NCBI GenBank assembly: GCA_965283725.1
Contig: CBDIPT010000001.1
Location: 799,154-863,153 of the forward strand
Direction of reading: 5' to 3'
Origin: Limisphaerales bacterium
Lineage (GTDB): Bacteria > Verrucomicrobiota > Verrucomicrobiia > Limisphaerales > JAEYXS01
DNA: 64,000 bases
Numbering within the stretch: position 1 is the first letter of the stretch; every line of letters begins with the position of its first letter. Shown here piece after piece: positions 13,573-38,643 of this stretch. Made by a program: the position numbers and the translations under genes. The notes beneath the pieces were generated by a model. It saw nothing but the letters and a program-made list of their open reading frames with translations. It ran no database searches and was not told where the DNA came from.

Positions 13573-13590
13573 AGGAGATTATTATGGGAA

Positions 13591-13625: not shown

Positions 13626-13657
13626 GGGCAAGGATAAGGCGGGAGCGGTTGGCGTTC

Positions 13658-13698
13658 TCACCCCTCACCCCGGCCCTCTCTCCGTTGAGGGGAGAGGG
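13658..13698. repeat. REP-like element: tandem TCACCCC x2 followed by a 10-bp hairpin
   Basis: tcacccc at 13658-13664 and 13665-13671. Stem ccctctctcc (13674-13683) / ggggagaggg (13689-13698) with one G.U pair, loop gttga. Confidence 0.75.
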
Positions 13699-13766
13699 AG
13701 AACGTTTGGACGCGCTTATTCCGGTGGATGGAGCGGACTGATGTTTGCAGCTTTCGTGAGCAACTT

Positions 13767-13883
13767 TGTAGCGCAGACCGGTGGTCTGCTGTATCGCCGA
13801 CTGGCAGTCGGCTGGCGCCATGACTATTTAACGGCTCGCAGATCACCGATCTGCGACACGGCAGGTTGCCAACCTGCGCTACA
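13767..13883. repeat. cluster of four perfect short palindromes (BIME/REP-like array) bracketed by a 10-nt inverted repeat
   Basis: Four hairpins: gcagacc-ggt-ggtctgc (13773-13789); gccgactg-g-cagtcggc (13796-13812); cgcagatc-acc-gatctgcg (13837-13855); gcaggttg-c-caacctgc (13861-13877). Outer inverted repeat tgtagcgcag (13767-13776) / ctgcgctaca (13874-13883). Confidence 0.85.
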
Positions 13884-13929
13884 GAAGCGGGCGGTTAAGT
13901 TTGGTCAGAGCCTCCTGACGTCAGCTGCT

Positions 13930-16900: not shown

Positions 16901-19900
16901 AGACGCTGGATCTGAAACTGGCTTCGCGGTCCAAGACGCCCTCGCGAGTACGGGTGGAAGCGCCCGTGGTGACGGCTCCGGTGTTGCTGGCGGAATGGCA
17001 GATCGAGCCGGATGCGGGATACAGTCTACTGTATCGTGGCGGATCGCTTGTGCCGACGACGGGTGTGGCGGATAACTCGGGCTTTGCTGGACTCGCCCGG
17101 ATGATGATGAGCGGTGACGCCAAACGGCATATGCTGCTGTTTGCGATTTCGATCATCTTTGTGGTGTTGATTTGGCGCTGGGCGTCGAAAGAAGGGGCAT
17201 ATCGGTTTGGACCGCGGCACTTTGGTGGTGGACTTGTAGGAGTCATCGCTTTGTTACTGGCGGGAACACACTTTCTTTCCTTGCAGGAAATGGCGAAGCG
17301 GCAGCAGGAGGTTCCTGAGGCCAAGCTGTCATTCCTCGCGCCGGTGCAGCAAAGCAACAGCGTGCTGAGCGTGGAGGTGGCGAATGTGACGGGCAGCCAG
17401 GCGGCAGGCACAAGTCTCGTGCACGCTTGGCCGGTGGCATTGGCATTGGTGATCTGGGGAGTTGCTTTATTGAGTCCGCGGGGGTTGAAGCAGTCCTTGG
17501 GAATAGCGTTTGGTTGGACCTTGATTGCTTGGACAACGCTGCGTTGGCCAAATGGAGCCGGGTTGTTTCTACTGCTACTCTTGGCGTTCTTGATTGTTCA
17601 TGTGCTGTGGCCGGGGTTGCGTCGGTTGGGGCGCGTTCCGCATCCGCCGGAACCGCCCGTGGAAGGCCAGGCAGCGACGACGGCGTTACTGCTGTGTGGG
17701 TTACTGTGGTTGAGCGCACTGCCTTTGAATGCTGCAGTGCCACCACAGACATCTGTGGCGGGTATTCCAGACATAGGCGTGGCGGAATCGGTGGTGCAAG
17801 ACATCCGCGTGGAAGAGAAGTTTGCCATGGCCACGGCGAAGATCCGCTGGGTAGCGATGAAGAACCAGACACTTCCCGTTGTGGCTGATCCGGCAGTGTT
17901 GACGGGAATCAACTATCCAACCAATAGCCTGACCTTGGTGCAGGTTTTTGCGAATGGAAAGCGAACGCAACAACTGCTTGCGCAGGCGGCGGGCACTTAT
18001 GACATCGAGGTGCAGTATCAACTGCATGTCACACAAAGGAATGCTGTGAACGGGTTTGAATTGCCGACACAGCAAGGCTTAATCAACCGGCTCACGCTGA
18101 CGTTGCCGGAGCAGGATGTGGAAATGGATGCACTGAATGCGGTTTCGGTGGTAAGCAACGTGGCGACGAATAATACGACGGTCTCGACGTTGGTGCTCAC
18201 GCCGACGGCGAATGCGTGGATCGGATGGAAACCGCGCAGCCGCGATGTGAAGCGTGAAAAGCCTGTGTTCTTCGTGGAGACGTTTCAACTGTATGCGCCC
18301 GCTGCCGGAGTGGTGGAAGGGGTGCATCGTGTGGAGGTGCGTCCGGCGCAAGGTGAACTGAGCGAGATGATTTTCACGATTCCGAAAGGAGCGACGATCA
18401 CGGATGTGCTTGATCCGATCACGGGGAAAGCATCTATCGTTTCACTGTGGCGCTTCGACCCAGATACGCGACAGTTGCGTGTGGGGTTGGCACCGGCCCA
18501 GTCGCGGCCGTTTGCTTTGGTCGTGCGTTCACAAGTGGCGACCGGTCCACTGCCGTTTGAGAAAAGTGTCGGTTTGCTGCAAGTGAATGGTGCGGCAGGG
18601 CAACTTGGTTCGGTAGGTGTTGCGACCGGTTCCGAGGTGCAGCTCGATAATGTGACGGCGGAGGCATTGTCGGCTATCAATCTGGAAGATTTTCCGGGAA
18701 GCACGTTGCAGCCTTTGCGTGGGCAGATCGTCGGGTTGACCTTGCGGCGCGCGTTCCGCTCCGCGGATGCGAAGGGCAATGTGAGCTTGAAGGTTTCTGC
18801 CGTGGAGCCGGATGTACGAGTGGAGACGCAGGAGACGTTGTCATTAGGCGAAGATCGCACGGTGTTGGCGGTCAAGGCGGTGATGGCCGTGAGCCGGGCG
18901 GGCATCTTCCGCGTAAGCTTCGTGTTGCCGACAGGACTGGACGTGGAGTCGATCAATGGTAACGCGATCTCGCACTGGACGGAATTGAAGGCGACGGAGG
19001 GACGCATCATCACGTTGCACTTGAAGGGGAAGACGGAAGGACAGGAGGAATTCAACGTGAACCTGACGGGCGTGGGCATCAAGGCGGCGAAGGGTGTTGT
19101 GGTGCCGCATGTCACGTTCCGCGAGGCGAGCAAGCAGCGTGGGCAACTAGTGATCGTGCCGGAGCAGGGGATGCGCTTGCAAGTTGGTGCGCGCGAGGGT
19201 GTGACGCAACTGGACCCGCAGAAATCGGGCATCCGGCAGAAAGGTGTGTTGGTGTTCCGCCTGTTGCAACCGCAGTGGACGTTGGGATTGGACATCGAGC
19301 AAGTGGACGCCTGGGTGCAGGTGACGGGTTTGCAGCATGTGACCATCAGCGAGGCGCAGGTGAAGGTGGCGGCGAACCTGCAATACCAGATCGAGAATAC
19401 GGGCTTGAAGGCGTTGCGGGTCCGCTTGCCAGCGAATGCAGAGAGCGTGCATTTCCGGGGCGATCAAGTGGCGGACTACTTGCCGGTTCCGGGTTTGGCG
19501 ACGAACCAATGGCAGACGTGGGATGTGAAGTTGCATCGCCGCGTTATTGGCAAGTATCTGCTGCAAGCAGCGTGGCAGACGCCCGTGGCGCAAGCGGCGA
19601 CGACTACGGTGGTGCAAGGAATTCAAGCAATGGATGCCAATCTGCAACGGGGTTTCGTGACAGTGCAATCGGGTGGGCGTTTGCAAGCGCGGGCGGATGT
19701 GATTCCGGCGGCGTTGCAGCCAGCCGAATGGCAGAGCATTCCCCGGGCGTTGTTGCAGGACATTCCGGCGGCAACGGCGAACCAAACCTATCGGCTGGTG
19801 GAGCCGAGCTATGCGTTGGCATTGACACTCGAGCGGCATGAAGCGACGAAGCTGCTGCCAGCGCGCGTGAACAGCGTGGTGTTGAGTTCGGTGATCTCGG

Positions 19901-20928
19901 ATGAGGGTGTGATGCTGACGCAGGTGCGCATCGATCTGGTGCCGGGTGATAAGCGGCTCCTCAACTTCACGCTGCCGCAAGATGCGCAATTCTGGTTTGC
20001 GTTTGTGAATCAGAAGGGCGTTTGGCCTTGGCGCGATAAGGACAAGATTCTGCTGCCGCTGGAGCAGCAATCGAAGGCGGATCAAGCCACGACGGTGGAG
20101 CTCTTCTACTCAAGCCGAATCGGTCAAAGCGGCGGGCGCAGTCTGGACTTGGCCTTGAACGGGCCGAAGTTTGATCTGCCGCTGGAGAACATCAGTTGGA
20201 AAGTGTATCTCAACGAGAAGTGGGAACTGAAGAGCTGGAAGGGGACACTACAGTTGCAGGAGGACACCAAGGTGGCGCAACCCGTCGCTGTGGATCAGCA
20301 ATCATATCTCGAAAATGAAGTGACCTTGAGCCGACAGAAGACGAAAGCGGCGGAGGACATGCTGAATCTCGGTAACAACCTGCTGGCGAATGGTGATCCG
20401 CAGCAGGCGCGTCGGGCATTCCAAAGCGCGTATGGCTTGAGCGGGCATGACAATGCCTTCAATGAAGACGCCCGGGTGCAGTTGCATAACCTGAAACTGC
20501 AACAGGCATTGGTGGGGTTGAACTTCCGCCAAGCGGCGGTGAATGGTGAAGCTGCGGCAAACGGCAATCTTAAGGAATTGCGGAATCGCAAGGACGTGGC
20601 CTATACGCAGCAGGAAGCGAAACAGATCATCGATGCGAACACGGCGGATGATAACGCGGTACTGATGCGGTTGGCGGAACGGATCATCCAGCAGCAGGAC
20701 GCCGCAGTGCCGAATCCAGCGGAGATCCGGGCGACCATCCCGCAACAGGGACGCATGCTGACCTTCCGGCGCACGGTGCAAGTGGATACGTGGACGGACC
20801 TAAACATCAAGCTGGAGGCGGGCGCGTTTCGGACGGCATCGAATGGGTTGCGCGTGGGCATCCTCGCCTCGTTACTCGTTGGGTTCATGGTTATCGTGTG
20901 GGCAATGGGGAAGCGGGAAAAAGTTTAA
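13930..20928 (+). CDS. giant (~2330 aa) envelope/membrane protein of unknown function, two homologous beta-rich halves separated by a 5-TM block; TPR-like tail and C-terminal TM anchor
   Basis: Uninterrupted ORF, open from 13741, but the first 63 codons are the palindrome array. The ATG at 13930 gives 'MLLSALVIGFMPMITSAAQ'. Hydrophobic helices are encoded at ~17128-17735. C-terminal 'GLRVGILASLLVGFMVIVWAM'. I recognised no catalytic motif. Confidence 0.8.
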   Translation: MLLSALVIGFMPMITSAAQVEGRDVSINGGVQDGKARIVIEGQFGPLIGEKEKVLFATAIQHSLLITREKHTHTINVVLDVLRGEPTELPLIINGQGEIKEVTGANLQDWSVRQENGSRVLVLRPRKTDKPLTQLIVSIQAEQTTRLLGTGLQTLSLTSPQASLMNGYLKVDVAPELSVQPINVTGLVPIEAKLLPEGLRPVLKPDQEEPLAYRFHGSAYSFPVTVTVADPEARRVVLRDFKLEGALSDRTAGFTLTATARVKNPKGGSVQLLSGEVALAELVPNADWRLKLDNGRFVAVFDKPGEYQLRIKFNAAVKQAAGWSSVDFKVANAALQPVVFQGLGADTQFNFEGAAKPERKGSEFQSFLPPDGAVKLAWKEMRAEAEGKLFYAAEMLSQVSIGSGMMRQVALLEGKIMQGELSKVVLQVRGQGSVTAVQGANVLAWKVEPVADSKERKLVVQFNQPQKDAFLLQVQMQTELGAFPQAVDAMQIQPEGATRFAGHLRVVNQGAVRLEVVQSTGLSQISPEQFPENDMTKSVLGGQGAQRFAFRFSSADFSLRVQADNVLPELSVSQLISYRLGETETVIDGEFELDIREAPLREVLLRVPKGYAIAGLSAGGLSDYFLQEPAGQVDAELRLVYGAPITGRQIIQLRLERNSALGQATWALPRIEVLKAKSTRGHIAVAADAGFRLTPERTVALTDIATAFFPRKIEGIQAAFRLSEPAWEASMRVERLPQSIQADAFHLFSIGEGIAYGSSTINFAISGAPVSSFLISLSDEYFNVEFTGKDLRSNWQKTTNGYVVTLNTPVSGAYTLLVTYERPFKAQGDTLTFTGARPMDAQSEQGHTLVVSAYQFQVKPSNVSAGLLPLETAEVPAEYRLFFDAPILAAYRYNARPFNLQLALSPLAQGETVSLIVDRAVLSTRISQDGEVLTDVRYFVKNRGNPHFRLKLPEGVTLWSATVNGGTVVPVKDGDANLIPLPQRADPSAVQTLDLKLASRSKTPSRVRVEAPVVTAPVLLAEWQIEPDAGYSLLYRGGSLVPTTGVADNSGFAGLARMMMSGDAKRHMLLFAISIIFVVLIWRWASKEGAYRFGPRHFGGGLVGVIALLLAGTHFLSLQEMAKRQQEVPEAKLSFLAPVQQSNSVLSVEVANVTGSQAAGTSLVHAWPVALALVIWGVALLSPRGLKQSLGIAFGWTLIAWTTLRWPNGAGLFLLLLLAFLIVHVLWPGLRRLGRVPHPPEPPVEGQAATTALLLCGLLWLSALPLNAAVPPQTSVAGIPDIGVAESVVQDIRVEEKFAMATAKIRWVAMKNQTLPVVADPAVLTGINYPTNSLTLVQVFANGKRTQQLLAQAAGTYDIEVQYQLHVTQRNAVNGFELPTQQGLINRLTLTLPEQDVEMDALNAVSVVSNVATNNTTVSTLVLTPTANAWIGWKPRSRDVKREKPVFFVETFQLYAPAAGVVEGVHRVEVRPAQGELSEMIFTIPKGATITDVLDPITGKASIVSLWRFDPDTRQLRVGLAPAQSRPFALVVRSQVATGPLPFEKSVGLLQVNGAAGQLGSVGVATGSEVQLDNVTAEALSAINLEDFPGSTLQPLRGQIVGLTLRRAFRSADAKGNVSLKVSAVEPDVRVETQETLSLGEDRTVLAVKAVMAVSRAGIFRVSFVLPTGLDVESINGNAISHWTELKATEGRIITLHLKGKTEGQEEFNVNLTGVGIKAAKGVVVPHVTFREASKQRGQLVIVPEQGMRLQVGAREGVTQLDPQKSGIRQKGVLVFRLLQPQWTLGLDIEQVDAWVQVTGLQHVTISEAQVKVAANLQYQIENTGLKALRVRLPANAESVHFRGDQVADYLPVPGLATNQWQTWDVKLHRRVIGKYLLQAAWQTPVAQAATTTVVQGIQAMDANLQRGFVTVQSGGRLQARADVIPAALQPAEWQSIPRALLQDIPAATANQTYRLVEPSYALALTLERHEATKLLPARVNSVVLSSVISDEGVMLTQVRIDLVPGDKRLLNFTLPQDAQFWFAFVNQKGVWPWRDKDKILLPLEQQSKADQATTVELFYSSRIGQSGGRSLDLALNGPKFDLPLENISWKVYLNEKWELKSWKGTLQLQEDTKVAQPVAVDQQSYLENEVTLSRQKTKAAEDMLNLGNNLLANGDPQQARRAFQSAYGLSGHDNAFNEDARVQLHNLKLQQALVGLNFRQAAVNGEAAANGNLKELRNRKDVAYTQQEAKQIIDANTADDNAVLMRLAERIIQQQDAAVPNPAEIRATIPQQGRMLTFRRTVQVDTWTDLNIKLEAGAFRTASNGLRVGILASLLVGFMVIVWAMGKREKV

Positions 20929-20936
20929 AGGGGGCT

Positions 20937-21007
20937 CTTGCTTGATTTTCAAGCAGGATGAAGAAACACAAAAGCCGCTCAGGTGTTGATCACGCTGAGC
21001 GGCTTTT
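20937..21007. terminator. bidirectional terminator region between convergent genes (two hairpins)
   Basis: Hairpin 1: tgcttga (20939-20945) / tcaagca (20949-20955). Hairpin 2: 13-bp perfect stem aaaagccgctcag (20970-20982) / ctgagcggctttt (20995-21007), whose A4/T4 ends give a U-tract in both directions. Confidence 0.75.
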
Positions 21008-21023
21008 GGTGTTTAAAGATGAC

Positions 21024-24000
21024 TTAAGAATCCATCAGCCGCCGGGCATCATCGGATTCACGGGCAAGGCTGACAGGGATATTGCGGATCTCGGTGCGTT
21101 TGCCGTTACGCCGTTCTTCTTTGGAGACGACCACGAGCCAGTCGCAGTGTTCGAACGCGTAAGGAATGTTGCCCGTGCTCATGGAGAACACGCCTTGCAG
21201 ATCGAAGGCTTTCAGGGCGGTAATACAGTCTTTGATGCGCTCGCCGCTGAGCTTGGAGAAGGCTTCATCGATCGGCACCAGACCAAGTGACGGCTCCTGT
21301 TTGCGCGTGGTGTTGTAACGGCGATAAGCACGCAGATAGCTGGCGAGAATGGCGATGAAGTAAGGTGATTGATTCTCACCACCGCTGAACTTGCCGGAAT
21401 GACGATCCACACTGGTCTTGCGGCCATCTGCTTCTACGACTTCCATGTCGTATTCGTAGTAATGGCGGTAATCCAGCAGGCGAGCGGCTTCGGAGCCGTC
21501 CGGTTCTTCAGTCAGCATTTTTAGGAAGTGCGCGATGGCTTCGCGGAATTTCTCGCTGGCAGAGGTGAAGAACAGGTCGTCCTCGGCCACCATGGCGCTG
21601 GCTTCGAGCAGTTCGTGGTACGTCTGGTAATCGGGATTGCGGCGGTAACGCAGCTCGTAAGTGTTGGTGCCGATGGGGCGTCGCTTGAGCGAGGTGTTCA
21701 ACAGCGTGACGAGATCTACGACTTCCTTCAGCGCACCGTATAGCTTTTCCAGAATTTGCGTTCGGAACAGGCGTTCCCAGTTCTTGCGTTCGCGTTCGGC
21801 TTTCTTGTGATAATCGGGAATATCGCTTTCCTTCAACTTGCCCCATTGCTTATCGAAAGCTTCATTCGACTCCGCATCGGCGGGCAGGTCGTCGAACTTC
21901 GGATACGCAGTGGCCAAGGCACGCCGTTGGGCTTTTAGTTCTTCCCAAGCGGCAGCGGCATCTTTATCGAAGGTGTGGTATTGCTGATTGAACTGAGCAG
22001 CAGCCACATTCTTGACGGGGAACTCGGCCAGCATGGCGCTTAACAGTGATTCCATGCGCTTCAACCAATGGGAGACATCCGTCTCGGCACGGACCTCCTC
22101 GAACTTATCAGCGAATACTCCTACTTCCTGGCGCAAGGTTTGGAGGTTGCGTTCCAGTTGGCGCAATTCTGAACGCTTCTCGCTCTTGTCGAGGGAACGC
22201 AGTTCTTCCTCGGAATCCTTCAGTTTCACTTCCAACTGAACTTGCTGCTTAGCGAGTTTGTCGAACTTGGCGCGGTCGATCGTGTTGAGCTTACTGATGT
22301 TATCCTGCAACTCATCCCGCAAGGAAGGCAGTTGGCGGATGCTTACCAGTTCATCGCTCAAGCTCGGCGCTTGTTCGAAGAGTTCGCGCCAGCCATCGCC
22401 CAAAGCGCGGATGGAACGCTCCAGCGGCATCAGCTTGCGCTCTTCCGCTTCGAGATCGGCGGCTTGCGATTGTTTCCAGGCGAGCTGTTGTTCGAGACCT
22501 TTTTGGCCCACGAAGGGATTGCCGTCGTAGAAGCGCGGGCGCTCGACGAAGGCGCCGCGAGACATGAAACCATCCGTCAGAATGCCGTTCTGTTCCGGGG
22601 GCAGAGCGCGGAGTTCGTTCAGCGAACCAACGCAAATGAGGTCGCCGAACAACTGGTTGACGATTGCCTCGGCGACGGGATGCGAGGTGCGCAGTTTTTC
22701 CGCGAGTGAACCGGGGCGAGCCTGCTTCTTGAGCTTGAGTGCTTTGCCGGGATTGATGAGCGATTCGCGGCCGGTCTCGTTCCCGAGTTCGGATGCCTTG
22801 AGACTGTGATAAATCTTCTCGGCCTGTTCGTAGTGCTCGCTAGAAACGACAATGGCGAACTTGCGGGCGAAAGCGATCTCCACGGCGGGACGCCAGCGTT
22901 CATCGGTCACTTCGCAAAGCTCGCGCAAGTGCCGGGCAGGCAGACCGGAGCCGTTGGATGGCAGCTTGTGGTTCAAAGAATCCAACAGGCGCGTAGGGAA
23001 CGGGAGCTTGCCGATTCTGAGGGCGGAAATCTCATCGCGAAGCTGGCCAAGCTGACGGCGCAGCTCGGCGAGGCGATCCAGTTGCGCTTTCGCTGCGCGA
23101 TTGGCCTCCGAAGCAGCGCGTTGAGATGTCTCGGTGAGCAGGCGCAGATTCTCGCTGGCTTTGGCGGTGCCTTCGGATTCGAGCGCATGGATGGCCAGTT
23201 CAAACGCGGCAGCGGGAGCCAGTTCCATGTCGAGCGGCAGAGCGCGCAGTTCTTTCAGCCAAGAGCGGGCGTTGCGCACGCGACTCGCCAGGGCTTGATC
23301 CAAGGTCGTGCCGACTTGCGTCAACTGGCCGATCTGAAACACGAGCTTCTCATTGCGCGATTTTAGCTCGTTGTAAAGGCGGCCATCAGGAGTTTCGTTG
23401 ATGCTGGCTTTGAGGCCATCAAGACGGGTGCGGAGTTCCGGGATGGTTTGTTCGAGTTGCTTGGTGCGCGCCTCTTCATCGGCGAATTCCCGTTTCAATC
23501 CCTGATAACGGGCCTCATCGGCCTGCAATTGCTCGGCCACATGTTCGTGGCGAAGACGGGCTTCCAGATAGCGGACCAAGGCGCGATCCCGGCGTAGATC
23601 GCCTAAACGCACGTGGGTCTTGTGGATGCCTTCGAGTTTCTCGAATTGGTCGTTTAACTCATTCAAATCGCGCTCGTATCTTTGGAACGTGCGATAGCTG
23701 GAGGTGACATCCGCCACGTCCAGCTTGTCCGCTGATAGAATGAACTGGCGGGCGAAGTCGTTGAAGCTCTTCAGGAACGTGAAGGACATCGCTGTGGGCA
23801 AAAGCGAGCGCAGCACATTACGGTCGTAGTTCAGGTGGCCCGGCTGCGCCATGTCGCGCAAATAGGCTTCGATACCTTCCGGATAGATGCGGCCGGATGT
23901 GCTTTCCGTCAGGGCCTTGAAGGCATGGTAATCTAGCGGACGTTTCTCGGCGTCGAGGAAATCGCTGCGGTTCAGAGATTCGGGAATGTAGAAAGGCGTG

Positions 24001-24386
24001 AGCTTGCCATGCGCTTCGGCGGCGCTGGTGAATTCGACCCGGAGGCCCCAAGTCTCAATCTTCTTGCCTGTGGGCCAAGTGAATTCGAGTGCCACATAGC
24101 TGATGGCACTCTGGCGCATGTATTGGGTGACACCGTTTTCCTCTTCCTTGGTATCGCCCAGGCAGTAGCCCTTCAGCGAGCGGTCGGAGCGGTCACCGGT
24201 GGCGGATTGATTGAAGCGGATGAGGCGTTGATCGCCGACAAGCACCAACTGGATCAAATCCATGAGAATGGATTTGCCGGAGCCGGTCACGCCGGCGAGG
24301 AGCAAGTTGCCATCGACGGTGATGGATTCCTTATAGCCGTACCAATTCAGCGCGTGGATGCGGGTCAGTTTGATGGTCCGTTTCAT
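21024..24386 (-). CDS. SMC-like ATPase of the MukB/MksB/JetC class
   Basis: 1120 aa. N-terminal Walker A 'LLAGVTGSGKS', very long charged coiled-coil middle, C-terminal signature-like 'FSGGENQ' and Walker B 'LGLVPIDEAF'. Its start overlaps the upstream stop (ATGA). Confidence 0.8.
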   Translation of the reverse strand: MKRTIKLTRIHALNWYGYKESITVDGNLLLAGVTGSGKSILMDLIQLVLVGDQRLIRFNQSATGDRSDRSLKGYCLGDTKEEENGVTQYMRQSAISYVALEFTWPTGKKIETWGLRVEFTSAAEAHGKLTPFYIPESLNRSDFLDAEKRPLDYHAFKALTESTSGRIYPEGIEAYLRDMAQPGHLNYDRNVLRSLLPTAMSFTFLKSFNDFARQFILSADKLDVADVTSSYRTFQRYERDLNELNDQFEKLEGIHKTHVRLGDLRRDRALVRYLEARLRHEHVAEQLQADEARYQGLKREFADEEARTKQLEQTIPELRTRLDGLKASINETPDGRLYNELKSRNEKLVFQIGQLTQVGTTLDQALASRVRNARSWLKELRALPLDMELAPAAAFELAIHALESEGTAKASENLRLLTETSQRAASEANRAAKAQLDRLAELRRQLGQLRDEISALRIGKLPFPTRLLDSLNHKLPSNGSGLPARHLRELCEVTDERWRPAVEIAFARKFAIVVSSEHYEQAEKIYHSLKASELGNETGRESLINPGKALKLKKQARPGSLAEKLRTSHPVAEAIVNQLFGDLICVGSLNELRALPPEQNGILTDGFMSRGAFVERPRFYDGNPFVGQKGLEQQLAWKQSQAADLEAEERKLMPLERSIRALGDGWRELFEQAPSLSDELVSIRQLPSLRDELQDNISKLNTIDRAKFDKLAKQQVQLEVKLKDSEEELRSLDKSEKRSELRQLERNLQTLRQEVGVFADKFEEVRAETDVSHWLKRMESLLSAMLAEFPVKNVAAAQFNQQYHTFDKDAAAAWEELKAQRRALATAYPKFDDLPADAESNEAFDKQWGKLKESDIPDYHKKAERERKNWERLFRTQILEKLYGALKEVVDLVTLLNTSLKRRPIGTNTYELRYRRNPDYQTYHELLEASAMVAEDDLFFTSASEKFREAIAHFLKMLTEEPDGSEAARLLDYRHYYEYDMEVVEADGRKTSVDRHSGKFSGGENQSPYFIAILASYLRAYRRYNTTRKQEPSLGLVPIDEAFSKLSGERIKDCITALKAFDLQGVFSMSTGNIPYAFEHCDWLVVVSKEERRNGKRTEIRNIPVSLARESDDARRLMDS

Positions 24387-25051
24387 TCGCCTTTTTCCTC
24401 TTCTGCCGATTCATCCACTTCCGCTTCCACCACGCCGGATTCTTTCACGGCGGCGAGATAACGCGCCGCGTTCTTGTTCCAATCCGCCAGATCTTGAAAG
24501 GGAATCACGCGTTTCAAGGTCGGGTAAATCTCAATCAACGAACGTTCCAAGGCCACGTCCGGCGTGAAGCTGACGAGATTCTTGCGCTGGGCCAGCGAAA
24601 GGATTTCGCGCAACCGCGAAGGACTCGGCAGATGTTTCCGTAGTGGTTCAAACTTCGTCATCAAAGAGTCGTTCAACTGTTGCGCGGTCAGGCGTACGGG
24701 CGGGGTTTCACCACGATCGCGGACAGCGGTGTCGAATTCATACCAGAGTGTGAGCAGCACCAAGGTGGCGTCCAGCTTGAGGCGCAGCAGGAAGGTGGCG
24801 GTCTGCGGGACGGCTTGCACGGTGCGATCTTGATGTTCCCAATGCACCTTGAGATCCAGCAATCCTGCGAATTCATCCACCCAGACACGATTTTGATGGC
24901 ACCAGTGGTAGAGATCCATCTGGGCGGGTTCGAGGCCGAGGATGGAACCGCTGGAGAGCAGGCGGCGCAGGGCTTCGCCGAGCCGTTCACGATCGTTCTC
25001 GGAAAGGCGCGACAAGAGGCCGCCAGAAGGTGAGGCAGATTCAGTGGTCAT
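24383..25051 (-). CDS. MukE/MksE/JetB-like (DUF4194-type) subunit
   Basis: 222 aa with an acidic tail 'EAEVDESAEEEKGE'. Sits between the kleisin-like and SMC-like genes and is translationally coupled on both sides. The family call rests on size, position and composition, not on a diagnostic motif. Confidence 0.6.
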   Translation of the reverse strand: MTTESASPSGGLLSRLSENDRERLGEALRRLLSSGSILGLEPAQMDLYHWCHQNRVWVDEFAGLLDLKVHWEHQDRTVQAVPQTATFLLRLKLDATLVLLTLWYEFDTAVRDRGETPPVRLTAQQLNDSLMTKFEPLRKHLPSPSRLREILSLAQRKNLVSFTPDVALERSLIEIYPTLKRVIPFQDLADWNKNAARYLAAVKESGVVEAEVDESAEEEKGE

Positions 25052-26487
25052 TTCTTTAGCAAAGTGAAGCGCTCGATGCGGTAGAGCAGTTTGGTGTCGA
25101 ACTCCCCGGCGTCCAGGTCGCCTTCACGCCGTGGCACCTTGATCTCATATTGGCAATCCGCGGAGCGCGCGTGTAGCAAACACGCAATGATGTTGGCGAT
25201 GTCTTCGTCATTGTGGACATGTTTGCGGAGCAGTTCGCCGGAATCGATGCTCGCCCCTTTTTCCAATGGCAGGGAGGAAATGAAATGATTGGCACGGCTC
25301 ACGGTGAGGGAATCGCGCATGGTGTTCTCCAACTGGGCCAGCGCACGGTCTTGTTGCCGCGTGTCGGAATCTTCCAGCGGTTCGATCTCGCCCGCGGCGC
25401 GGCGGAGGCGTGGCGTGTAGAGCGATTCCATGCCGCCGATGATACGGGTGTCATGCAGGCGCAACGTGGGGAACTCGATGCCGAGGTTGTCGAGTTCGCC
25501 CACGCGATAACCGGCGAAGTGCTGGTTCAGCGTCTCGAAGAAATCTTGCACGCGGGCGCGATTCTCGCTGGTGGTCTCTTGCAGGTAGCGAAAGCGGGCC
25601 TGCGAACGGCGGGCGAACTCGGCGGTGCGGCGGTCGATGACCATCGCGAGCGGTTCGATATGGCCGAGCAATTCCTCAAGCTCGTTCAAACGCAGCCGCA
25701 CGCGTGACATTGCGGACTCGGGCGACAGGGTGGAATCCCGGCGCATCACTTCGGTCTGCATCTTGCCCAGCAGATCGACGTCGTTGGCGAGTTCATCCAT
25801 CGCATACTGGGCTTCGGCCAACCTAGTGGGCAGTCGGGCATGAACAAGCTGGGTGTAGCAGGCACGGCCGATACGCTCGGCAAATTGATCGAAGATGACT
25901 TCCAGATTCTCCTTCAGCGTGGAGCTGGCGAGCTGATGCTTGGTGTGACGTTCGATGGAGCGCTGCATGCTGCGCAATTCCGTCAGTCCGGCTTCAAGGC
26001 TGGCGATGCATGTTTCGATCTGGCCCCAAGGCTGATCGGCCAGGGCGTTGCGATTCGAGAGCGTGAAGCAGACCGAGATCAGTTTGTCGGAAAAGACCGC
26101 GGCTTCGGGATAGGCGATCTTGCGCAAGGCGTGCAGCAAGAGGGTGCCGTTGGGATCAAAAAAGATAAGCTTCTGCCAATCGGTGCGTTCCTCCTCCTGC
26201 ACCCAACCGGTTTTGCGCAATGTATCCAGAATGACGCGGGCCTTGTCACGGATGGTGCTGGCTTGGGCGAGGGGATCGGTCTCTTCCGGCTTCAGATCTC
26301 CGTAGTCCTCCACGACCTGCTCGACGAGGGCGAGGGCTTCATCCCGTTCCAAACCTTGGTTGCGCTGGGCCGCTTCGTATTCCAAGGCATGCAGAGCATC
26401 TACATACAATCGCGCCAAAGGACCGGCCAGCAACCGGAAGAAATCCGGCCGGACCTCGCGAAATAAATGGCTGGCGAGAGCGGACAT
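25048..26487 (-). CDS. MukF/MksF/JetA-like kleisin-type subunit
   Basis: 479-aa helical protein, first gene of the three-gene operon. Size and order match MukF/MksF/JetA. I cannot verify any motif by eye. Confidence 0.55.
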   Translation of the reverse strand: MSALASHLFREVRPDFFRLLAGPLARLYVDALHALEYEAAQRNQGLERDEALALVEQVVEDYGDLKPEETDPLAQASTIRDKARVILDTLRKTGWVQEEERTDWQKLIFFDPNGTLLLHALRKIAYPEAAVFSDKLISVCFTLSNRNALADQPWGQIETCIASLEAGLTELRSMQRSIERHTKHQLASSTLKENLEVIFDQFAERIGRACYTQLVHARLPTRLAEAQYAMDELANDVDLLGKMQTEVMRRDSTLSPESAMSRVRLRLNELEELLGHIEPLAMVIDRRTAEFARRSQARFRYLQETTSENRARVQDFFETLNQHFAGYRVGELDNLGIEFPTLRLHDTRIIGGMESLYTPRLRRAAGEIEPLEDSDTRQQDRALAQLENTMRDSLTVSRANHFISSLPLEKGASIDSGELLRKHVHNDEDIANIIACLLHARSADCQYEIKVPRREGDLDAGEFDTKLLYRIERFTLLKK

Positions 26488-26666
26488 GTGCGGAAAAGCT
26501 AACGGGCGGACGATAATAAATACAGCCCAACTGACAGGAAAAACGAAGATTTTATGCGGGCGGAAAATGACGGTTTTCGGGTCTTTTTAGAGCCGGTTTT
26601 TAACGTGGAAAAACAGTAGCCGGTGGTGGATTCCCTACATGGCGTGGTGCGGGTTATGCCCCTAGC

Positions 26667-27854
26667 TTGGCTCCACTCCAGATGAAAAAACTGTTGATAC
26701 TATTGGTGGCAGCCTCTGCCGCTTGGCAGGCGCAGGCCAATCCTATCCGGGTCCTCCATATCGGCAAGGAAGGGACAGACTCGGCCAAACACGCCCATGT
26801 GTTGATGCGCGAATTCGGCCGGGACGCCATCTGGTTTGACTACCAGAACGACCCCAAAGCGGTGACCCCGGACTTCGCCCAAAAGTTTGACGTGGTGCTA
26901 TTCGACCCCACCCGTAATGACATGCCGGCGCTTAAAGATGTTCCGGCTAAGAAAGTCATCACCGCCAATTTTTCTGGCGATGAACGCCAGTGGGTGGAAC
27001 CGAAGTTTCTAAGCTCGCTCAAAGACCAGATTGTGGTGGCCGCGGGTGATGCGCGTCGGAAGCAGTGGGAGGAATTCCTTGCTCAGCGCGAACCCGAAAA
27101 GCGCGAAGCGAGCCCGACCATCGCGAATTATGAGCGGCGCGCCGAGCCGCTGACGTTGCAGCATCCATTCACCGTGAAGGGCAGCAAGGAGCGCACACAG
27201 GTGGCACCGGATATGCATCTGGAGCTGTTCGCAGCGGAGCCGGATATCGCCAAGCCGATCGCTTTTGCCTGGGACGAGCGGGGGCGTCTGTGGGTTTGCG
27301 AGACGCGGGATTATCCGCACGACGTTCAACCAGATGGCAAGGGGCATGACTCCATCAAGATTTGTGAAGACACGAACGGCGATGGCAAGGCGGACAAATT
27401 CACGGTATTCGCGGAAAACCTGAACATCCCCACGAGCATGGTATTCGTGAATGGGGGCGTGATCGTCTCGCAGCCGCCGCGTTTCATCTTTCTGAAAGAT
27501 ACAAACGGTGATGACAAGGCGGATGTGCGCGAGGAAATCCTAACGGGCTGGGGCATCGGGGATACGCATGCTCAGGCGAACAATCTGCATTACGGCTTTG
27601 ATAACTGGCTCTACGGTTGCGTGGGTTACTCGGGCTTCAATGGCAAGGTAGGCGGGCAGGATATGCGCTTTGCGCAAGGCACCTATCGTTTCAAGGCGGA
27701 TGGATCGGCTTTGGAATTCTTGCATCAGTTCAGCAACAACTCGTGGGGCCAGAGCGTGAACGAGGCGGGGATCAATTCGGCGGCACGGCGAACAATGCGC
27801 CGATTTTCTTCGGTGGCATACCGGCGTCCCTCGTGCCGAAAGGTCTGCGGGTGA
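26667..27854 (+). CDS. PVC-type membrane-bound-dehydrogenase-domain / heme-binding protein, N-terminal fragment (frameshifted)
   Basis: Signal peptide 'MKKLLILLVAASAAWQAQA'. 'FAAEPDIAKPIAFAWDERGRLWVCETRDYP..EDTNGDGKADK..KDTNGDDKAD' is the family hallmark. Junk translation follows 27770. Confidence 0.75.
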   Translation: MAPLQMKKLLILLVAASAAWQAQANPIRVLHIGKEGTDSAKHAHVLMREFGRDAIWFDYQNDPKAVTPDFAQKFDVVLFDPTRNDMPALKDVPAKKVITANFSGDERQWVEPKFLSSLKDQIVVAAGDARRKQWEEFLAQREPEKREASPTIANYERRAEPLTLQHPFTVKGSKERTQVAPDMHLELFAAEPDIAKPIAFAWDERGRLWVCETRDYPHDVQPDGKGHDSIKICEDTNGDGKADKFTVFAENLNIPTSMVFVNGGVIVSQPPRFIFLKDTNGDDKADVREEILTGWGIGDTHAQANNLHYGFDNWLYGCVGYSGFNGKVGGQDMRFAQGTYRFKADGSALEFLHQFSNNSWGQSVNEAGINSAARRTMRRFSSVAYRRPSCRKVCG

Positions 27855-29623
27855 TGACAGCCAAGAAGATCAATGTGGAAGACAAGGTGCATACCATCAC
27901 GCCGAATTTCCGTCAGGTAGATGTGTTTGGCGGTTACACGGCAGCGGCGGGCAGCGCGTTCATCAATTCCGGCAATCTCCCGGCACGATTCCAAGGCAAG
28001 GCGATGGTTTGCGAGCCGACGATGAAAACCATTTCGTTGATGGATGTGCAGCCGGACGGTGCGGGTTACGTGGCGAAGGATGGTTTCAATCTGGTGGCAA
28101 GCACGGATGAATGGATGTCGCCGGTATTCTCCGAGGTTGGTCCGGATGGTGCGATCTGGTTCTCCGACTGGCAGAACTACATCATCCAGCATAATCCGAC
28201 GCCGAGCTATGAGCGGGGTGGTTATGCAGCGAAGACGGGTGTGGGCGGGGCGCATGAGAATCCATTGCGCGATCATGCGCGTGGGCGCATCTATCGCGTG
28301 GTGTGGGACAAGGCGACCAAGCCGGCCATCACTTCGCTCAAGGGCGCGAGCACAGCGCAATTGACGGCGGCTTTGGGTGATGACAACCAGTTCTGGCGGT
28401 TGACGGCGCAACGGTTGCTGGTGGAAGGCAAGCGCGTGGAAGCCGCGCCGGAATTGAAACAGGCGGTGACGAATGGTCCGGCGATCAAGGCGATCCATTC
28501 GCTGTGGGCATTGCAGGGCTTGGGCAAGCTGGACGATGACACGCATCGGGCGGCGTTGCTGCATAAGGATGCGATGGTGCGCCGTAATGCGACGCGGGCT
28601 TTGGGCAGTGACGACCGCGCCCAGAAGCTGTTCTTCAGCGCCGGTGTGGTGAGCGATCCGAATCCGAACACGAAGCTTGCCGGTCTGGTGAAGCTGGCGG
28701 AGTTCACGACGACGAAGAACATCCAGACGGTAGTGGGCAGTCTGGCAAAGAACACATCGTTGAAATCCGATGAATGGTTGAGTGATGCTGTGCGGTTGCT
28801 GGCGAAGAAGCACCACACGGAGGTGTATCGTGAAGGGCCGAACTTGCTGCCGAATCCGGGTTTTGAGGAATTGGGCACGGATGGTTTCCCGGTGGGCTGG
28901 AAGCGGCGTGATTACGGGAACCAAGCCAAAGCCGGGGAAGCGGAATGGGCCGTGGTGAAGGGAAGCGATCAGAAGCATGGGGGTGAGGCGGCCATGCGGG
29001 TCATCGCACGCACGAAGAGCAACGGCCCGGTGGATACAAGCTTCTTCGCGGATGTGGTCTTGAAGCCGAACACGGATTACCGCCTAAGCGCCTGGATCAA
29101 AGGCCATGCCTTGCGGAATGGCAAAGTCAGTCTGAACGACCATATTGGTCGCGCGGAGACGGACAAGGTCACGAGGGAATCCGACTGGGTGGAAGTCGAG
29201 ACCATCTTCAACAGCCGTGACCGGAAAACGGCCAGCATCAACATCTTGTTCGTAGCACAGGGCGGCGATGGCTATTTCGATGATGTGAAGCTGGCAGAAT
29301 TGTTGCCCCTGGAAGATTCAACCAAGGTGTTGGTCGGTGATGCCAAACGGGGTGACGAGATCTTCCATCATCATGCGGCGGCTTGTATCCTGTGCCATTC
29401 ATTGAAGGGCGAGGGCAGCACGGTGGGGCCGGCGTTGGATGGCATCGCGACGCGCAAGGACGCGGCTTATATCAAGCAGAGTTTGCTGGAGCCGAGCGCC
29501 GTGCTAGCGCAGGGCTTCGAGAATCTGGGTGTTTCCCCGATGCCGCCGATGGGCGATATCTTCAATGCGCAGGAACTCCTGGATATCGGCGTATCTCCAG
29601 ACATTGAAATAAGCGGGTGCTGA
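27617..29623 (+). CDS. same dehydrogenase/heme-binding protein, C-terminal part (HEAT-like repeats, CBM-like domain, cytochrome c domain)
   Basis: The meaningful sequence starts at 'DQFGGTANNAPIFFGG'. HEAT-like 'MVRRNATRALG'. 'NPGFEELG..GWKRRDYG..DYRLSAWIKG' is a CBM4/9-like sandwich. Heme site 'CILCH'. Confidence 0.8.
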   Translation: MRGLLGLQWQGRRAGYALCARHLSFQGGWIGFGILASVQQQLVGPERERGGDQFGGTANNAPIFFGGIPASLVPKGLRVMTAKKINVEDKVHTITPNFRQVDVFGGYTAAAGSAFINSGNLPARFQGKAMVCEPTMKTISLMDVQPDGAGYVAKDGFNLVASTDEWMSPVFSEVGPDGAIWFSDWQNYIIQHNPTPSYERGGYAAKTGVGGAHENPLRDHARGRIYRVVWDKATKPAITSLKGASTAQLTAALGDDNQFWRLTAQRLLVEGKRVEAAPELKQAVTNGPAIKAIHSLWALQGLGKLDDDTHRAALLHKDAMVRRNATRALGSDDRAQKLFFSAGVVSDPNPNTKLAGLVKLAEFTTTKNIQTVVGSLAKNTSLKSDEWLSDAVRLLAKKHHTEVYREGPNLLPNPGFEELGTDGFPVGWKRRDYGNQAKAGEAEWAVVKGSDQKHGGEAAMRVIARTKSNGPVDTSFFADVVLKPNTDYRLSAWIKGHALRNGKVSLNDHIGRAETDKVTRESDWVEVETIFNSRDRKTASINILFVAQGGDGYFDDVKLAELLPLEDSTKVLVGDAKRGDEIFHHHAAACILCHSLKGEGSTVGPALDGIATRKDAAYIKQSLLEPSAVLAQGFENLGVSPMPPMGDIFNAQELLDIGVSPDIEISGC

Positions 29624-30928
29624 CTAGCTGAAAAGTGCCGTCACCGGTTTGCCCCCATCGGTGATCGGCACGGGGCGGGTGCCATCGTAGAGTTCCTTGC
29701 CCGGATTGATGCCGAGCGCGGCGCAGATGGTCGCGTGGAAATCCGGCATGGTCACGGGGTTCGTGACCACTTTCTTGGAAAGCTCATCGGATTCGCCATA
29801 GGCACGGCCGTGCTTCAATCCACCCCCGGCCATCACCAAGGTGAAGCACTTGGATTGATGGCCACGGCCGCCGCCGGAATCGAATTCAGGCGGGCGACCG
29901 AACTCAGTGCCGACTACGACCAAGGTCTTATCCAGCATCTTCCGTTGCTCCAGATCGAGGACCAAAGTGGACAGGGCATGGTCCAGTTCCTGGATGAGCA
30001 TGTACTGCTTGAGCTGGCCGGCGTTATGGGTGTCCCAACCGGTGCCGTTGATGAAATTCAAATTGTGCGAGACTTCTACGAAGCGGACGCCTGCTTCCAC
30101 CAACCGGCGGGCCAGCAAGCAACGCTGACCGAACTCGCCACCGTAGCGATTGCGCAGGTCGGCGGGCTCTTGCTTGAGCTGGAAGAGGTGCATGAAATCA
30201 GGGCCGGCGAGTTTCAGGCTTTGCTCGATGACTTCATTGTATTGGCGGGTGGCGGCGTCATCAGGTGTGGATTGCCGGACTTCAGCGAGCAGTTGTTCGC
30301 GGCGGGCCTGGCGGACATTATCCACCCCGGAGTGACGCACGAAACCATTGGGTCCAGCTTCGGTATCGGTGAGGTAGAGATAGCCGTGTTTGGGACCGAG
30401 GAACCCGGGATCGCGTGAGGCACTGGGGTAACCGACCACGACATACGCCGGGGCAGTGGGAGAGCGCTGTCCCAATTCATGCGCCACGATGCTGCCGATG
30501 CTGGGGTAACGGATGGTCTCGCTGAACTGCCGGGCCGTGTGCACGAAGTGCGTGGCCGTGGCGTGTTCATCCACGGTAGAATGTGTGCAGGAGCGGAGGA
30601 GCGTGAGGCGGCCCATCACCTTCGCCACGTTTGGCAGATGCTCGGTCACATTCACACCCGGAACGGCTGTGGGGATGACGTCGTAATAGGTGCCCGCCTG
30701 CTTGGTCTTGGGGTTGCCGCGTTTCTTGGGGTCGAAGGTATCGACCTGCGCCATGCCACCGCCGAGCCACATGAAGATGCATTGCTCCGCCTTGCCTTTG
30801 GGGAAGTTCTCGGAGGACGAGGCGAAGGCGCCTGGTAGCAGATTCATCGCGGCAGCCATCGCCGCACTGCGGCCGCCAAGGGAAAGGAATTGGCGGCGGG
30901 ACAGGTGATTGTTCAGGTGGGGCAACAT
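29624..30928 (-). CDS. DUF1501 family protein (sulfatase/alkaline-phosphatase-like, Tat-exported)
   Basis: 434 aa. Tat signal 'SRRQFLSLGGRSAAMAAAM'. 'FMWLGGGMAQVDTFDPK' and 'GWDTH', 'GTEFGR', 'GRGH' blocks are typical of DUF1501. Confidence 0.85.
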   Translation of the reverse strand: MLPHLNNHLSRRQFLSLGGRSAAMAAAMNLLPGAFASSSENFPKGKAEQCIFMWLGGGMAQVDTFDPKKRGNPKTKQAGTYYDVIPTAVPGVNVTEHLPNVAKVMGRLTLLRSCTHSTVDEHATATHFVHTARQFSETIRYPSIGSIVAHELGQRSPTAPAYVVVGYPSASRDPGFLGPKHGYLYLTDTEAGPNGFVRHSGVDNVRQARREQLLAEVRQSTPDDAATRQYNEVIEQSLKLAGPDFMHLFQLKQEPADLRNRYGGEFGQRCLLARRLVEAGVRFVEVSHNLNFINGTGWDTHNAGQLKQYMLIQELDHALSTLVLDLEQRKMLDKTLVVVGTEFGRPPEFDSGGGRGHQSKCFTLVMAGGGLKHGRAYGESDELSKKVVTNPVTMPDFHATICAALGINPGKELYDGTRPVPITDGGKPVTALFS

Positions 30929-30932
30929 AGTG

Positions 30933-33827: not shown

Positions 33828-34005
33828 CCGCCCGCAGGCTGGGGTAACGGTCGTTTGACTGATGATATGGCGTTCCATGTAATCCGGTGACAGCCATAGT
33901 GTAGTGCCGGAACATGAATCGTCACGAACGCAGTGGTGGGAGGTGGGACTACCACTTTCGGGTGAGAGCCGCCAGCGAATGCCCAAAAAGGCAGCTTAAC
34001 GTTGG

Positions 34006-38640: not shown

Positions 38641-38643
38641 GCT

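What the first reader, a model, noticed from the sequence alone, without database searches (positions are those of the whole stretch)
21024..26487. JetABC/MksFEB-like SMC operon with no JetD/MksG nuclease gene
Seen: three translationally coupled minus-strand genes (ATGA overlaps at 25048-25051 and 24383-24386) of 479, 222 and 1120 aa. The last has Walker A 'GVTGSGKS', a long coiled coil, 'SGGENQ' and 'PIDEAF'. The order and sizes are those of kleisin / MukE-like / SMC-ATPase modules (MukFEB, MksFEB, Wadjet JetABC). Established: Wadjet and MksBEFG plasmid restriction require the Toprim-type JetD/MksG subunit, normally the fourth gene. Seen: the operon ends 16 nt before a strong bidirectional terminator and converges on the giant gene. 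Its upstream neighbour is a divergent dehydrogenase gene, and no Toprim-like ORF is evident anywhere in the 64 kb. I also see no integrase, tRNA or compositional break suggesting a defence island. Inference: either a nuclease-free MksBEF-type condensin in a PVC bacterium, or a DNA-sensing JetABC that uses an unlinked or non-canonical effector. This is the best candidate in the window for an unusual system.
Basis: partly seen in the sequence, partly recalled or inferred. Interest (0 to 1): 0.7.

Follow-up and report, generated by a model that had tools for sequence, protein, structure and literature searches.

The report
Wadjet SMC operon without its nuclease
This is a type I Wadjet anti-plasmid operon (jetA, jetB, jetC) that has lost its DNA-cutting subunit jetD yet is still strongly conserved by selection, so it may be a defence motor turning into a nuclease-free condensin.

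Summary
Three translationally coupled minus-strand genes (479, 222 and 1120 aa) match Wadjet type I JetA, JetB and JetC. No jetD or jetD remnant exists anywhere in the 64 kb.

What the follow-up added:
- **jetD loss is derived and rare.** In 36 of 38 related lineages (53-76% JetC identity) a 376-408 aa jetD lies 3-170 nt after jetC. Only the window lineage and one Chthoniobacteraceae MAG (L036) lack it, and these are independent losses.
- **It is not an assembly artefact.** A separate metagenome contig (L004, 95% nucleotide identity) has the same junction and terminator.
- **The operon is not decaying.** Between the window and L004, jetABC carries about 173 synonymous and 17 non-synonymous changes (dN/dS 0.009-0.036). 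That is at least as constrained as intact jetABCD pairs (0.03-0.125). All ATPase motifs are intact.
- **It is a lineage-specific insertion** beside a conserved chromosomal operon, in ordinary core DNA.

Best reading (confidence 0.55): a functional nuclease-free JetABC loop-extruding motor, a recent parallel to P. aeruginosa MksBEF.

Main rival: a JetD or another effector supplied in trans. No cognate jetD lies on the same 1.19-Mb contig, but the rest of the genome could not be searched.

Verdict: new variant of a known kind, moderate interest.

The parts
25048..26487 (-). jetA, the kleisin subunit (479 aa), Wadjet type I
   Evidence: Pfam PF18982 JetA at 1.4e-38, covering 4-416 of 434 profile positions. 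PADLOC JetA1 at 3.5e-34. dN/dS against L004 is 0.009.
24383..25051 (-). jetB, the KITE / MukE-like subunit (222 aa). It overlaps jetA and jetC by ATGA.
   Evidence: Pfam DUF4194 at 7.9e-14. PADLOC JetB1 at 1.6e-13. ATGA overlaps verified. dN/dS is 0.017.
21024..24386 (-). jetC, the SMC-type ATPase (1120 aa)
   Evidence: PADLOC JetC1 at 6.9e-170 over residues 5-1092. Pfam AAA_29, SbcC_Walker_B and a weak SMC_hinge match. dN/dS is 0.036.
24270..24293 (-). JetC Walker A motif, GVTGSGKS (aa 32-39)
   Evidence: Conserved across 31 family members.
21258..21278 (-). JetC Walker B motif, VPIDEAF (aa 1037-1043), with catalytic E1041
   Evidence: Invariant in 31 of 31 family members. It corresponds to E. 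coli JetC E1022 (10.1101/2022.10.04.510915).
21369..21386 (-). JetC ABC signature motif, SGGENQ (aa 1001-1006)
   Evidence: Invariant in 31 of 31 family members.
21531..21608 (-). JetC aa 927-952 around the invariant DDLFF. Probable 'larynx' JetD-docking site, carrying the densest cluster of window-lineage-unique substitutions.
   Evidence: By offset, E. coli F919 lies 103 residues before Walker B E1022, and window E1041 - 103 = 938, which is L938-F939-F940. Unique changes are A933V, R934A, A941T, E944S and R946K. The cluster is not significant after comparison with controls.
20964..21014 (.). Bidirectional intrinsic terminator shared by jetC and the convergent 2395-aa gene. It sits where jetD begins in relatives.
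   Evidence: dG -31.8 kcal/mol with flanking A and T tracts. Conserved in L004.
26488..26666 (.). Divergent intergenic region upstream of jetA; presumed promoter region, not identified
   Evidence: No sigma-70 consensus match. Inference only.

Best explanation
The locus is a type I Wadjet operon that descends from a four-gene jetABCD cassette and has lost the Toprim nuclease gene jetD. What remains is a complete and functional JetA (kleisin), JetB (KITE) and JetC (SMC ATPase) complex. By homology, this complex should assemble as a dimer of motor units, load on DNA, hydrolyse ATP and extrude DNA loops. Without JetD it cannot cut the DNA it has scanned. Selection has kept the three genes intact since the loss, so the motor must do something useful without cleavage. 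Most likely it acts as an accessory condensin that helps fold or segregate the chromosome, as P. aeruginosa MksBEF does. Less likely, it holds or mis-segregates small circular DNA without cutting it. Shown here: the identity of the genes, the absence of jetD, the derived nature of the loss, and purifying selection. Inferred: loop extrusion and the cellular role.
For: **Identity.** The three proteins match JetA1, JetB1 and JetC1 models.

**Absence of jetD.** tblastn and a JetD profile HMM over all six frames find nothing in the window, L004 or L036.

**The loss is derived.**
- jetD lies directly after jetC in 31 of the genome loci. The other four are jetD-less L036, contig ends L022 and L039, and L026, whose jetC is broken.
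- jetD is also present in L001, L002 and L101-L103.
- In an NJ tree of JetA+B+C, the window plus L004 nests inside jetD-bearing clades. L036 nests separately with jetD-bearing L023 and L035.

**Real, not an artefact.** L004 comes from a separate JGI metagenome, is 95% identical over 22 kb, and has the same junction and terminator.

**Function is retained.**
- dN/dS between the window and L004 is 0.009, 0.017 and 0.036 for jetA, jetB and jetC (about 173 synonymous against 17 non-synonymous changes, dS 0.10-0.24).
- Flanking housekeeping genes give 0.04-0.08. Intact jetABCD pairs give 0.03-0.125.
- All ATPase motifs are invariant.
- The window proteins break only 6 of 168, 1 of 91 and 10 of 427 family-invariant columns, which is typical of jetD-bearing members.

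**Published biochemistry.** JetABC without JetD hydrolyses ATP and extrudes loops but does not cleave (10.1101/2024.02.17.580791).

**Context.** The operon sits in core chromosomal DNA with no integrase or tRNA. Relatives sit beside integrases, a TrwC relaxase, or WYL and SLFN genes.

**No cognate jetD on the same contig.** None of the top 120 JetD relatives (at least 624 bits) lies on a 1,188,532-bp contig.

**Weak hint.** R934 is Arg or His in 28 of 28 jetD-bearing members. It lies next to the probable JetD-docking Phe and is replaced in both jetD-less lineages.
Against: - The rest of the genome could not be searched, so a jetD or another effector in trans is not excluded.
- The probable JetD-docking phenylalanines (F939, F940) and most of the head surface remain conserved. 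That would also fit continued JetD binding.
- The substitution cluster around them is no more extreme than clusters seen elsewhere in jetD-bearing controls.
- In C. glutamicum, MksBEFG has no detectable role in chromosome folding (PMC7083940). In E. coli, JetABC with a nuclease-dead JetD does not remove plasmids (10.1101/2022.10.04.510915). A useful nuclease-free activity for a type I complex has therefore not been demonstrated.
- No expression data exist, and no promoter was identified.
Confidence: 0.55

Rival explanations
1. The system is still a working plasmid-restriction Wadjet. JetD is encoded elsewhere in the genome, either relocated or borrowed from a second Wadjet operon, and is recruited in trans to the JetC larynx.
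For: Strong purifying selection on jetABC fits a complete defence system equally well. The probable docking Phe-Phe (F939, F940) and the C-terminal head are conserved. JetD behaves as a separable, exchangeable module: between L002 and L020, jetD dS is 0.02 while jetABC dS is about 0.3.
Against: - jetD is contiguous with jetC in 36 of 36 jetD-bearing lineages examined.
- No unlinked arrangement was seen.
- No cognate-level JetD (at least 624 bits) lies on the same 1.19-Mb contig.
- R934, which flanks the docking site, is lost in both jetD-less lineages.
- A dedicated terminator sits where jetD should start.
Confidence: 0.17
2. JetABC has been rewired to a different, non-homologous effector encoded elsewhere. 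It would act as a DNA-shape sensor that signals to, or recruits, another nuclease or toxin.
For: Purifying selection without jetD. A cluster of lineage-specific substitutions on the presumed effector-docking surface. Mild acceleration of JetA and JetC evolution on the stem branch.
Against: No candidate effector is adjacent or anywhere in the 64 kb. No precedent was found in the literature searched. The cluster is not statistically exceptional.
Confidence: 0.1
3. The locus is a disabled defence system, a remnant left after jetD was deleted (perhaps selected to allow plasmid uptake), and is on its way to decay.
For: Defence systems are often inactivated by deletion. Published examples are the M. 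smegmatis eptC mutation and the C. cellulovorans deletions (PMC10586767, PMC12287153). Degraded relatives exist: L031 has a 5'-truncated jetC plus jetD with no jetA or jetB detected.
Against: With dS about 0.15 and about 4,180 non-synonymous sites, neutrality predicts several hundred replacements plus frameshifts. Only 17 replacements and no disruption are seen over 5.4 kb in two genomes. The ATPase motifs are intact.
Confidence: 0.06
4. The absence of jetD is an assembly or binning artefact.
For: The window shows a probable homopolymer indel in the neighbouring gene, so the assembly is not error-free.
Against: Two independent assemblies share the same 95-nt junction with a terminator and the same flanking genes. 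There is no room for a 1.1-kb gene.
Confidence: 0.02

Closest known systems
Wadjet type I (JetABCD; also called MksBEFG or EptABCD), e.g. E. coli GF4-3 and P. aeruginosa PA14 JetABCD
   Same: JetA, JetB and JetC all match type I models. Gene order, sizes and translational coupling are the same. The ATPase motifs, the hinge and the probable larynx Phe are present. The closest relatives (up to 76% JetC identity) are complete jetABCD operons.
   Different: There is no jetD. A terminator replaces it. The locus sits in core chromosomal DNA rather than a mobile or defence-island context. Plasmid cleavage, the defining activity of Wadjet, is impossible with these three genes alone.
MksBEF of Pseudomonas aeruginosa (nuclease-free MukBEF-like condensin)
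   Same: It is a three-gene kleisin/KITE/SMC operon without MksG/JetD. The literature proposes that it arose from JetABCD by JetD loss (PMC10586767). It is maintained in the chromosome.
   Different: The window proteins are still unmistakable type I Jet proteins only about 24% diverged from jetD-bearing sisters, so the loss is evolutionarily recent. Sequence relatedness to P. aeruginosa MksBEF was not tested here. No chromosome phenotype is known for the window operon.
MukBEF of gamma-proteobacteria
   Same: Same architecture (kleisin MukF, KITE MukE, SMC MukB) and a dimer-of-motors geometry. It is hypothesised to descend from a Wadjet-like ancestor.
   Different: No sequence-level match was seen to MukF, MukE or MukB families in Pfam or NCBIfam. 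MukBEF is the sole condensin of its hosts, whereas Verrucomicrobia normally carry Smc-ScpAB (from general knowledge, not tested here).

Membership tests
Wadjet type I (JetABCD) | JetA kleisin (PF18982 / DUF5716) | tested here: met
   PF18982 at 1.4e-38 and PADLOC JetA1 at 3.5e-34.
Wadjet type I (JetABCD) | JetB KITE subunit (DUF4194) | tested here: met
   PF13835 at 7.9e-14 and PADLOC JetB1 at 1.6e-13.
Wadjet type I (JetABCD) | JetC SMC-like ATPase with intact Walker A, Walker B and signature motifs and a hinge | tested here: met
   PADLOC JetC1 at 6.9e-170. Motifs are invariant against 30 relatives. SMC_hinge matches at 1.3e-4.
Wadjet type I (JetABCD) | JetD Toprim/aCAP nuclease encoded in the operon | tested here: not met
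   No JetD in the 64 kb by tblastn or profile HMM. A terminator lies 16 nt after jetC. In 36 of 38 related lineages jetD follows jetC.
Wadjet type I (JetABCD) | ATP-dependent cleavage of small circular DNA / plasmid restriction | not testable with these tools
   This needs a transformation or in vitro cleavage assay.
MksBEF-type nuclease-free condensin | Kleisin/KITE/SMC three-gene operon with no MksG/JetD in the operon | tested here: met
MksBEF-type nuclease-free condensin | No MksG/JetD anywhere in the genome | tested here: inconclusive
   Only the 64-kb window was searched directly. Indirectly, none of the top 120 JetD relatives lies on the 1,188,532-bp contig.
MksBEF-type nuclease-free condensin | Genes maintained by selection in the nuclease-free state | tested here: met
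   dN/dS 0.009-0.036 between two jetD-less genomes at dS 0.10-0.24.
MksBEF-type nuclease-free condensin | Contribution to chromosome organisation or segregation | not testable with these tools
   This needs Hi-C and genetics, for example a synthetic phenotype with smc.

The most novel reading that the evidence does not exclude
A type I Wadjet motor caught shortly after losing its nuclease, already fixed and held under stronger purifying selection than intact sister systems. It would be a natural intermediate in the proposed route from plasmid-restriction JetABCD to chromosomal MksBEF/MukBEF-type condensins. Alternatively it could be a non-cleaving, Smc5/6-like silencer of small circular DNA. 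With L036 as a second, independent case, this would give paired jetD-bearing and jetD-less sister systems for testing what changes when a defence SMC is domesticated.
Probability: 0.4. Interest if true: 0.65.

Novelty: new variant of a known kind. Interest (0 to 1): 0.48.

Why it matters
How chromosome-folding SMC complexes and plasmid-restricting SMC complexes evolved from one another is an open question. Reviews propose that MksBEF and MukBEF arose from Wadjet by loss of JetD, but the known nuclease-free complexes are ancient and highly diverged. This locus is about 76% identical to complete jetABCD sisters, has demonstrably lost jetD, and is still under strong selection. That gives a closely matched natural pair for experiments: what does JetABC do on its own in vivo, which surfaces change after nuclease loss (for example the segment around F939/F940 and R934), and can adding back a sister JetD restore plasmid restriction? 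It also matters for annotation. Defence-system finders discard 'incomplete' Wadjet loci, some of which may be functional systems of a different kind.

Tried and rejected
- **Exact-sequence look-up** of the window JetC and of P0090 found no indexed contig. The source genome could not be retrieved, so a whole-genome JetD or Smc-ScpAB search was impossible.
- **Source genome identity.** The genome-contig scan did not find the window's own genome. The best hit was 76%.
- **Mapping E. coli F919 by sequence.**
  - phmmer of JetC against the PDB found nothing.
  - A family profile found only a weak match to P. aeruginosa JetC head 8dk1_C, covering profile positions 945-1084, and no E. coli JetC.
  - I fell back on the residue-number offset from the Walker B glutamate, which is an inference.
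- **Empty site or jetD-containing allele at the same chromosomal position.** 61 metagenome loci with the neighbouring giant gene carried no jet genes. The nearest (L040, 81%) has an unrelated gene downstream, so the insertion boundaries were not recoverable.
- **Clustering test of lineage-unique substitutions in JetC 927-952.** It is the top window in the protein (uncorrected P about 0.003), but jetD-bearing controls reach similar or lower minima elsewhere. I keep it only as a hint.
- **Relative-rate tests.** The window lineage is faster than most sisters in JetA and JetC, but not faster than L008. This is not a clear signature.
- **Terminator scanner.** It missed the real hairpin because of its loop-length limit, so I folded the sequence directly.
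- **Paper look-ups.** Four failed on term syntax.
- **Structure prediction** was not used. The HMM matches were decisive, and the tool returns no coordinates for surface mapping.
Full report
**Observation**

The window carries three minus-strand ORFs of 479, 222 and 1120 aa at 25048-26487, 24383-25051 and 21024-24386. Consecutive genes overlap by ATGA.

The 1120-aa protein has the following features:
- Walker A GVTGSGKS
- Q-loop NQSATG
- a weak SMC hinge match at aa 487-591
- signature SGGENQ
- Walker B VPIDEAF

Sixteen nucleotides after its stop codon lies a strong hairpin with an A-tract and a T-tract (dG -31.8 kcal/mol). The hairpin also terminates the convergent 2395-aa gene.

**Identity**

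Profile searches place all three proteins in Wadjet type I:
- JetA: PF18982 at 1.4e-38; PADLOC JetA1 at 3.5e-34
- JetB: DUF4194 at 7.9e-14; PADLOC JetB1 at 1.6e-13
- JetC: PADLOC JetC1 at 6.9e-170 over almost the full length

NCBIfam has no specific model for them.

**Is jetD really absent?**

- tblastn with two JetD proteins taken from relatives found only noise in the 64 kb.
- A JetD profile HMM run with all filters off against every six-frame segment of the window, L004 and L036 found nothing below E = 4. The positive control scored 694 bits.
- Pfam scans of the 32 main ORFs of the window show core genes and no nuclease, Toprim domain or integrase. The core genes include cbb3 oxidase, two-component systems, PSCyt/PSD1/DUF1501 pairs, an ECF sigma factor, and a VWA protein next to a giant membrane protein.
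- There are no tRNAs and no compositional break.
- A contig from an independent JGI metagenome (L004) is 95% identical over 22 kb. It has the same genes, the same 95-nt jetC-to-giant-gene spacer and the same terminator. The absence is therefore not an assembly artefact.

**The loss is derived and rare**

- JetC has hundreds of relatives at 60-76% identity and constant length, mostly labelled Verrucomicrobia (Pedosphaera, Limisphaerales, Chthoniobacteraceae).
- I examined 38 independent lineages: 35 species-representative genome loci plus metagenome contigs. In 36 of them a 376-408 aa jetD (PF09983) starts 3-170 nt after jetC.
- Loci that end at a contig edge were set aside.
- The exceptions are the window/L004 lineage and L036, a Chthoniobacteraceae MAG at 60% identity. 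In L036, jetC is followed by an unrelated 168-aa ORF and an M48 peptidase.
- In a neighbour-joining tree of concatenated JetA+B+C, the window lineage nests inside jetD-bearing clades. L036 nests separately with jetD-bearing L023 and L035. These are two independent losses.
- Relatives often sit next to integrases, a TrwC relaxase, or WYL and SLFN genes, so the four-gene cassette is mobile.

**Chromosomal setting**

- The giant gene next to jetC is conserved at 54-81% identity in 61 metagenome loci. Many of them also keep the upstream VWA gene. None has jet genes downstream.
- jetABC is therefore a lineage-specific insertion at a variable point beside a conserved operon.
- I could not recover an empty site or a jetD-containing allele at this position.

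**The remnant is functional**

Both the window and L004 lack jetD at an identical junction. All divergence between them therefore accumulated in the jetD-less state. Constraint (dN/dS):

| Comparison | dN/dS |
|---|---|
| jetA, window vs L004 | 0.009 |
| jetB, window vs L004 | 0.017 |
| jetC, window vs L004 | 0.036 |
| Flanking housekeeping genes, window vs L004 | 0.04-0.08 |
| jetA/B/C in nine close pairs of intact jetABCD operons | 0.03-0.125 |
| jetD in the same nine pairs | 0.09-0.26 |

- The window vs L004 figures rest on about 173 synonymous and 17 non-synonymous changes at dS 0.10-0.24.
- Under neutrality, several hundred replacements and some frameshifts would be expected over the 5.4 kb. 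None of the three genes is disrupted in either genome.
- The window proteins break only 6 of 168, 1 of 91 and 10 of 427 family-invariant columns, mostly conservatively. That is typical of jetD-bearing members.
- Relative-rate tests show at most a mild acceleration of JetA and JetC on the stem branch, and not against every sister.

**Possible footprint on the JetD-docking surface**

- In E. coli, the JetD aCAP domain docks on the JetC 'larynx', with F919 inserting into a JetD pocket. The F919E mutation abolishes restriction (10.1101/2023.11.03.565488).
- The E. coli Walker B glutamate is E1022 (10.1101/2022.10.04.510915), 103 residues after F919.
- The window Walker B glutamate is E1041, and 1041 - 103 = 938. 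That lands on L938-F939-F940 of an invariant DDLFF motif. This mapping rests on offset only, because the solved E. coli JetC could not be reached by sequence from this family.
- Both phenylalanines are retained.
- The densest cluster of window-unique residues in JetC flanks them: A933V, R934A, A941T, E944S and R946K. Residues 966-1093 of the head carry one unique change in the per-site test and none in the listing.
- R934 is Arg or His in all 28 jetD-bearing members. It is Ala in the window lineage and Ser in L036.
- After correcting for per-site variability, the cluster is the top window in the protein (uncorrected P about 0.003). However, jetD-bearing controls show equally extreme clusters elsewhere. 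L019, whose JetD is of a divergent type, has its own top cluster in this same segment.
- I treat this as a lead, not as evidence.

**An unlinked jetD?**

- A JetD family profile searched against 5.8 billion proteins returned 565 hits. None of the top 120 (at least 624 bits, the range where a relocated cognate JetD would fall) lies on a contig of 1,188,532 bp. That is the length of the contig that carries the window's JetC.
- This excludes a cognate jetD on the same 1.19 Mb only. The window's genome is not in the exact-match index or among the species representatives, so other contigs are untested.

**Mechanism**

- Published single-molecule work shows that JetABC without JetD hydrolyses ATP, extrudes loops and stalls on fully extruded plasmids. 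Cleavage needs an active JetD.
- P. aeruginosa MksBEF lacks the nuclease and contributes to chromosome organisation. It is proposed to have arisen from JetABCD by JetD loss.
- The best-supported reading is therefore a functional, nuclease-free loop-extruding JetABC retained for a non-cleaving role, most plausibly as an accessory condensin (confidence 0.55).
- Rivals:
  - JetD in trans (0.17)
  - a rewired non-homologous effector (0.10)
  - a decaying remnant (0.06, contradicted by dN/dS)
  - an assembly artefact (0.02, contradicted by L004)

**Comparison with known systems, and novelty**

- As a Wadjet system, the locus fails the defining jetD criterion, so it should not be filed as a canonical defence Wadjet.
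- It has the architecture of MksBEF, but by sequence it is a recently derived type I JetABC.
- Nuclease-free Mks complexes and their proposed origin are already in the literature. The new points are:
  - the recency of the loss
  - the demonstrable selection after it
  - a second independent case
- I rate it a new variant of a known kind with moderate interest (0.48).

Noticed in passing
window 26667-29623 (+), frameshift at about 27766: The DUF7133 / CBM_4_9 / cytochrome c gene divergent from jetA is split into 395-aa and 668-aa ORFs by a 1-nt deletion in a G-run (G5 to G4), compared with the intact 977-aa gene in L004. A 2-nt deletion near 29587 also alters the C-terminus. This is either a homopolymer sequencing error or a real pseudogene.
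   Followed up: partly
L002/L020, L006/L033, L016/L025 (jetD compared with jetABC): jetD evolves faster than jetABC (dN/dS 0.09-0.26 against 0.03-0.125), and its dS is decoupled from the rest of the operon. For example, L002-L020 jetD dS is 0.02 against about 0.3 for jetABC, and L006-L033 is 0.87 against about 0.4. This suggests the nuclease module is exchanged between operons by recombination.
   Followed up: partly
L036 10001-13366 and downstream 13424-15017: A second, independent jetD-less jetABC in a Chthoniobacteraceae MAG (RYN_612). jetC is followed by a 168-aa ORF of unidentified function and a convergent M48 peptidase. All three jet genes are intact.
   Followed up: partly
L031 10001-13849: A 5'-truncated jetC (matching query residues 245-1118 only) followed by a divergent jetD. 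No jetA or jetB was detected in 10 kb upstream. This looks like a degraded Wadjet locus and shows what real decay looks like in this family.
   Followed up: no
window 7908-20928 (+): A conserved gene string: an ECF sigma factor (219 aa), a 452-aa protein with no Pfam hit, a 1275-aa VWA/YfbK_C protein, and a 2395-aa multi-pass membrane protein with no Pfam match. The VWA-giant pair is syntenic in many metagenome relatives at 54-81% identity. Function unknown.
   Followed up: partly
window 20929-20963 (+): A second hairpin (CTCTTGCTTGATTTTCAAGCAGGATG) lies directly after the giant gene's stop codon and before the shared terminator. Together the 95-nt spacer folds at -45.4 kcal/mol.
   Followed up: no
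window 29624-33986 (-) and 36175-40085 (+): Two separate PSCyt/PSD1 (DUF1549/DUF1553) plus DUF1501 gene pairs, and two M48 peptidase paralogues (2586-4712 and 34006-35886). These families are typical of Planctomycetes-Verrucomicrobia genomes and support a PVC origin for the window.
   Followed up: no
(PDB search): The family profile of this JetC clade reaches only the P. aeruginosa JetC head (8dk1_C, 9.4e-10) and no E. coli or C. glutamicum JetC/MksB chain. This verrucomicrobial type I clade is therefore distant from every structurally characterised Wadjet.
   Followed up: no
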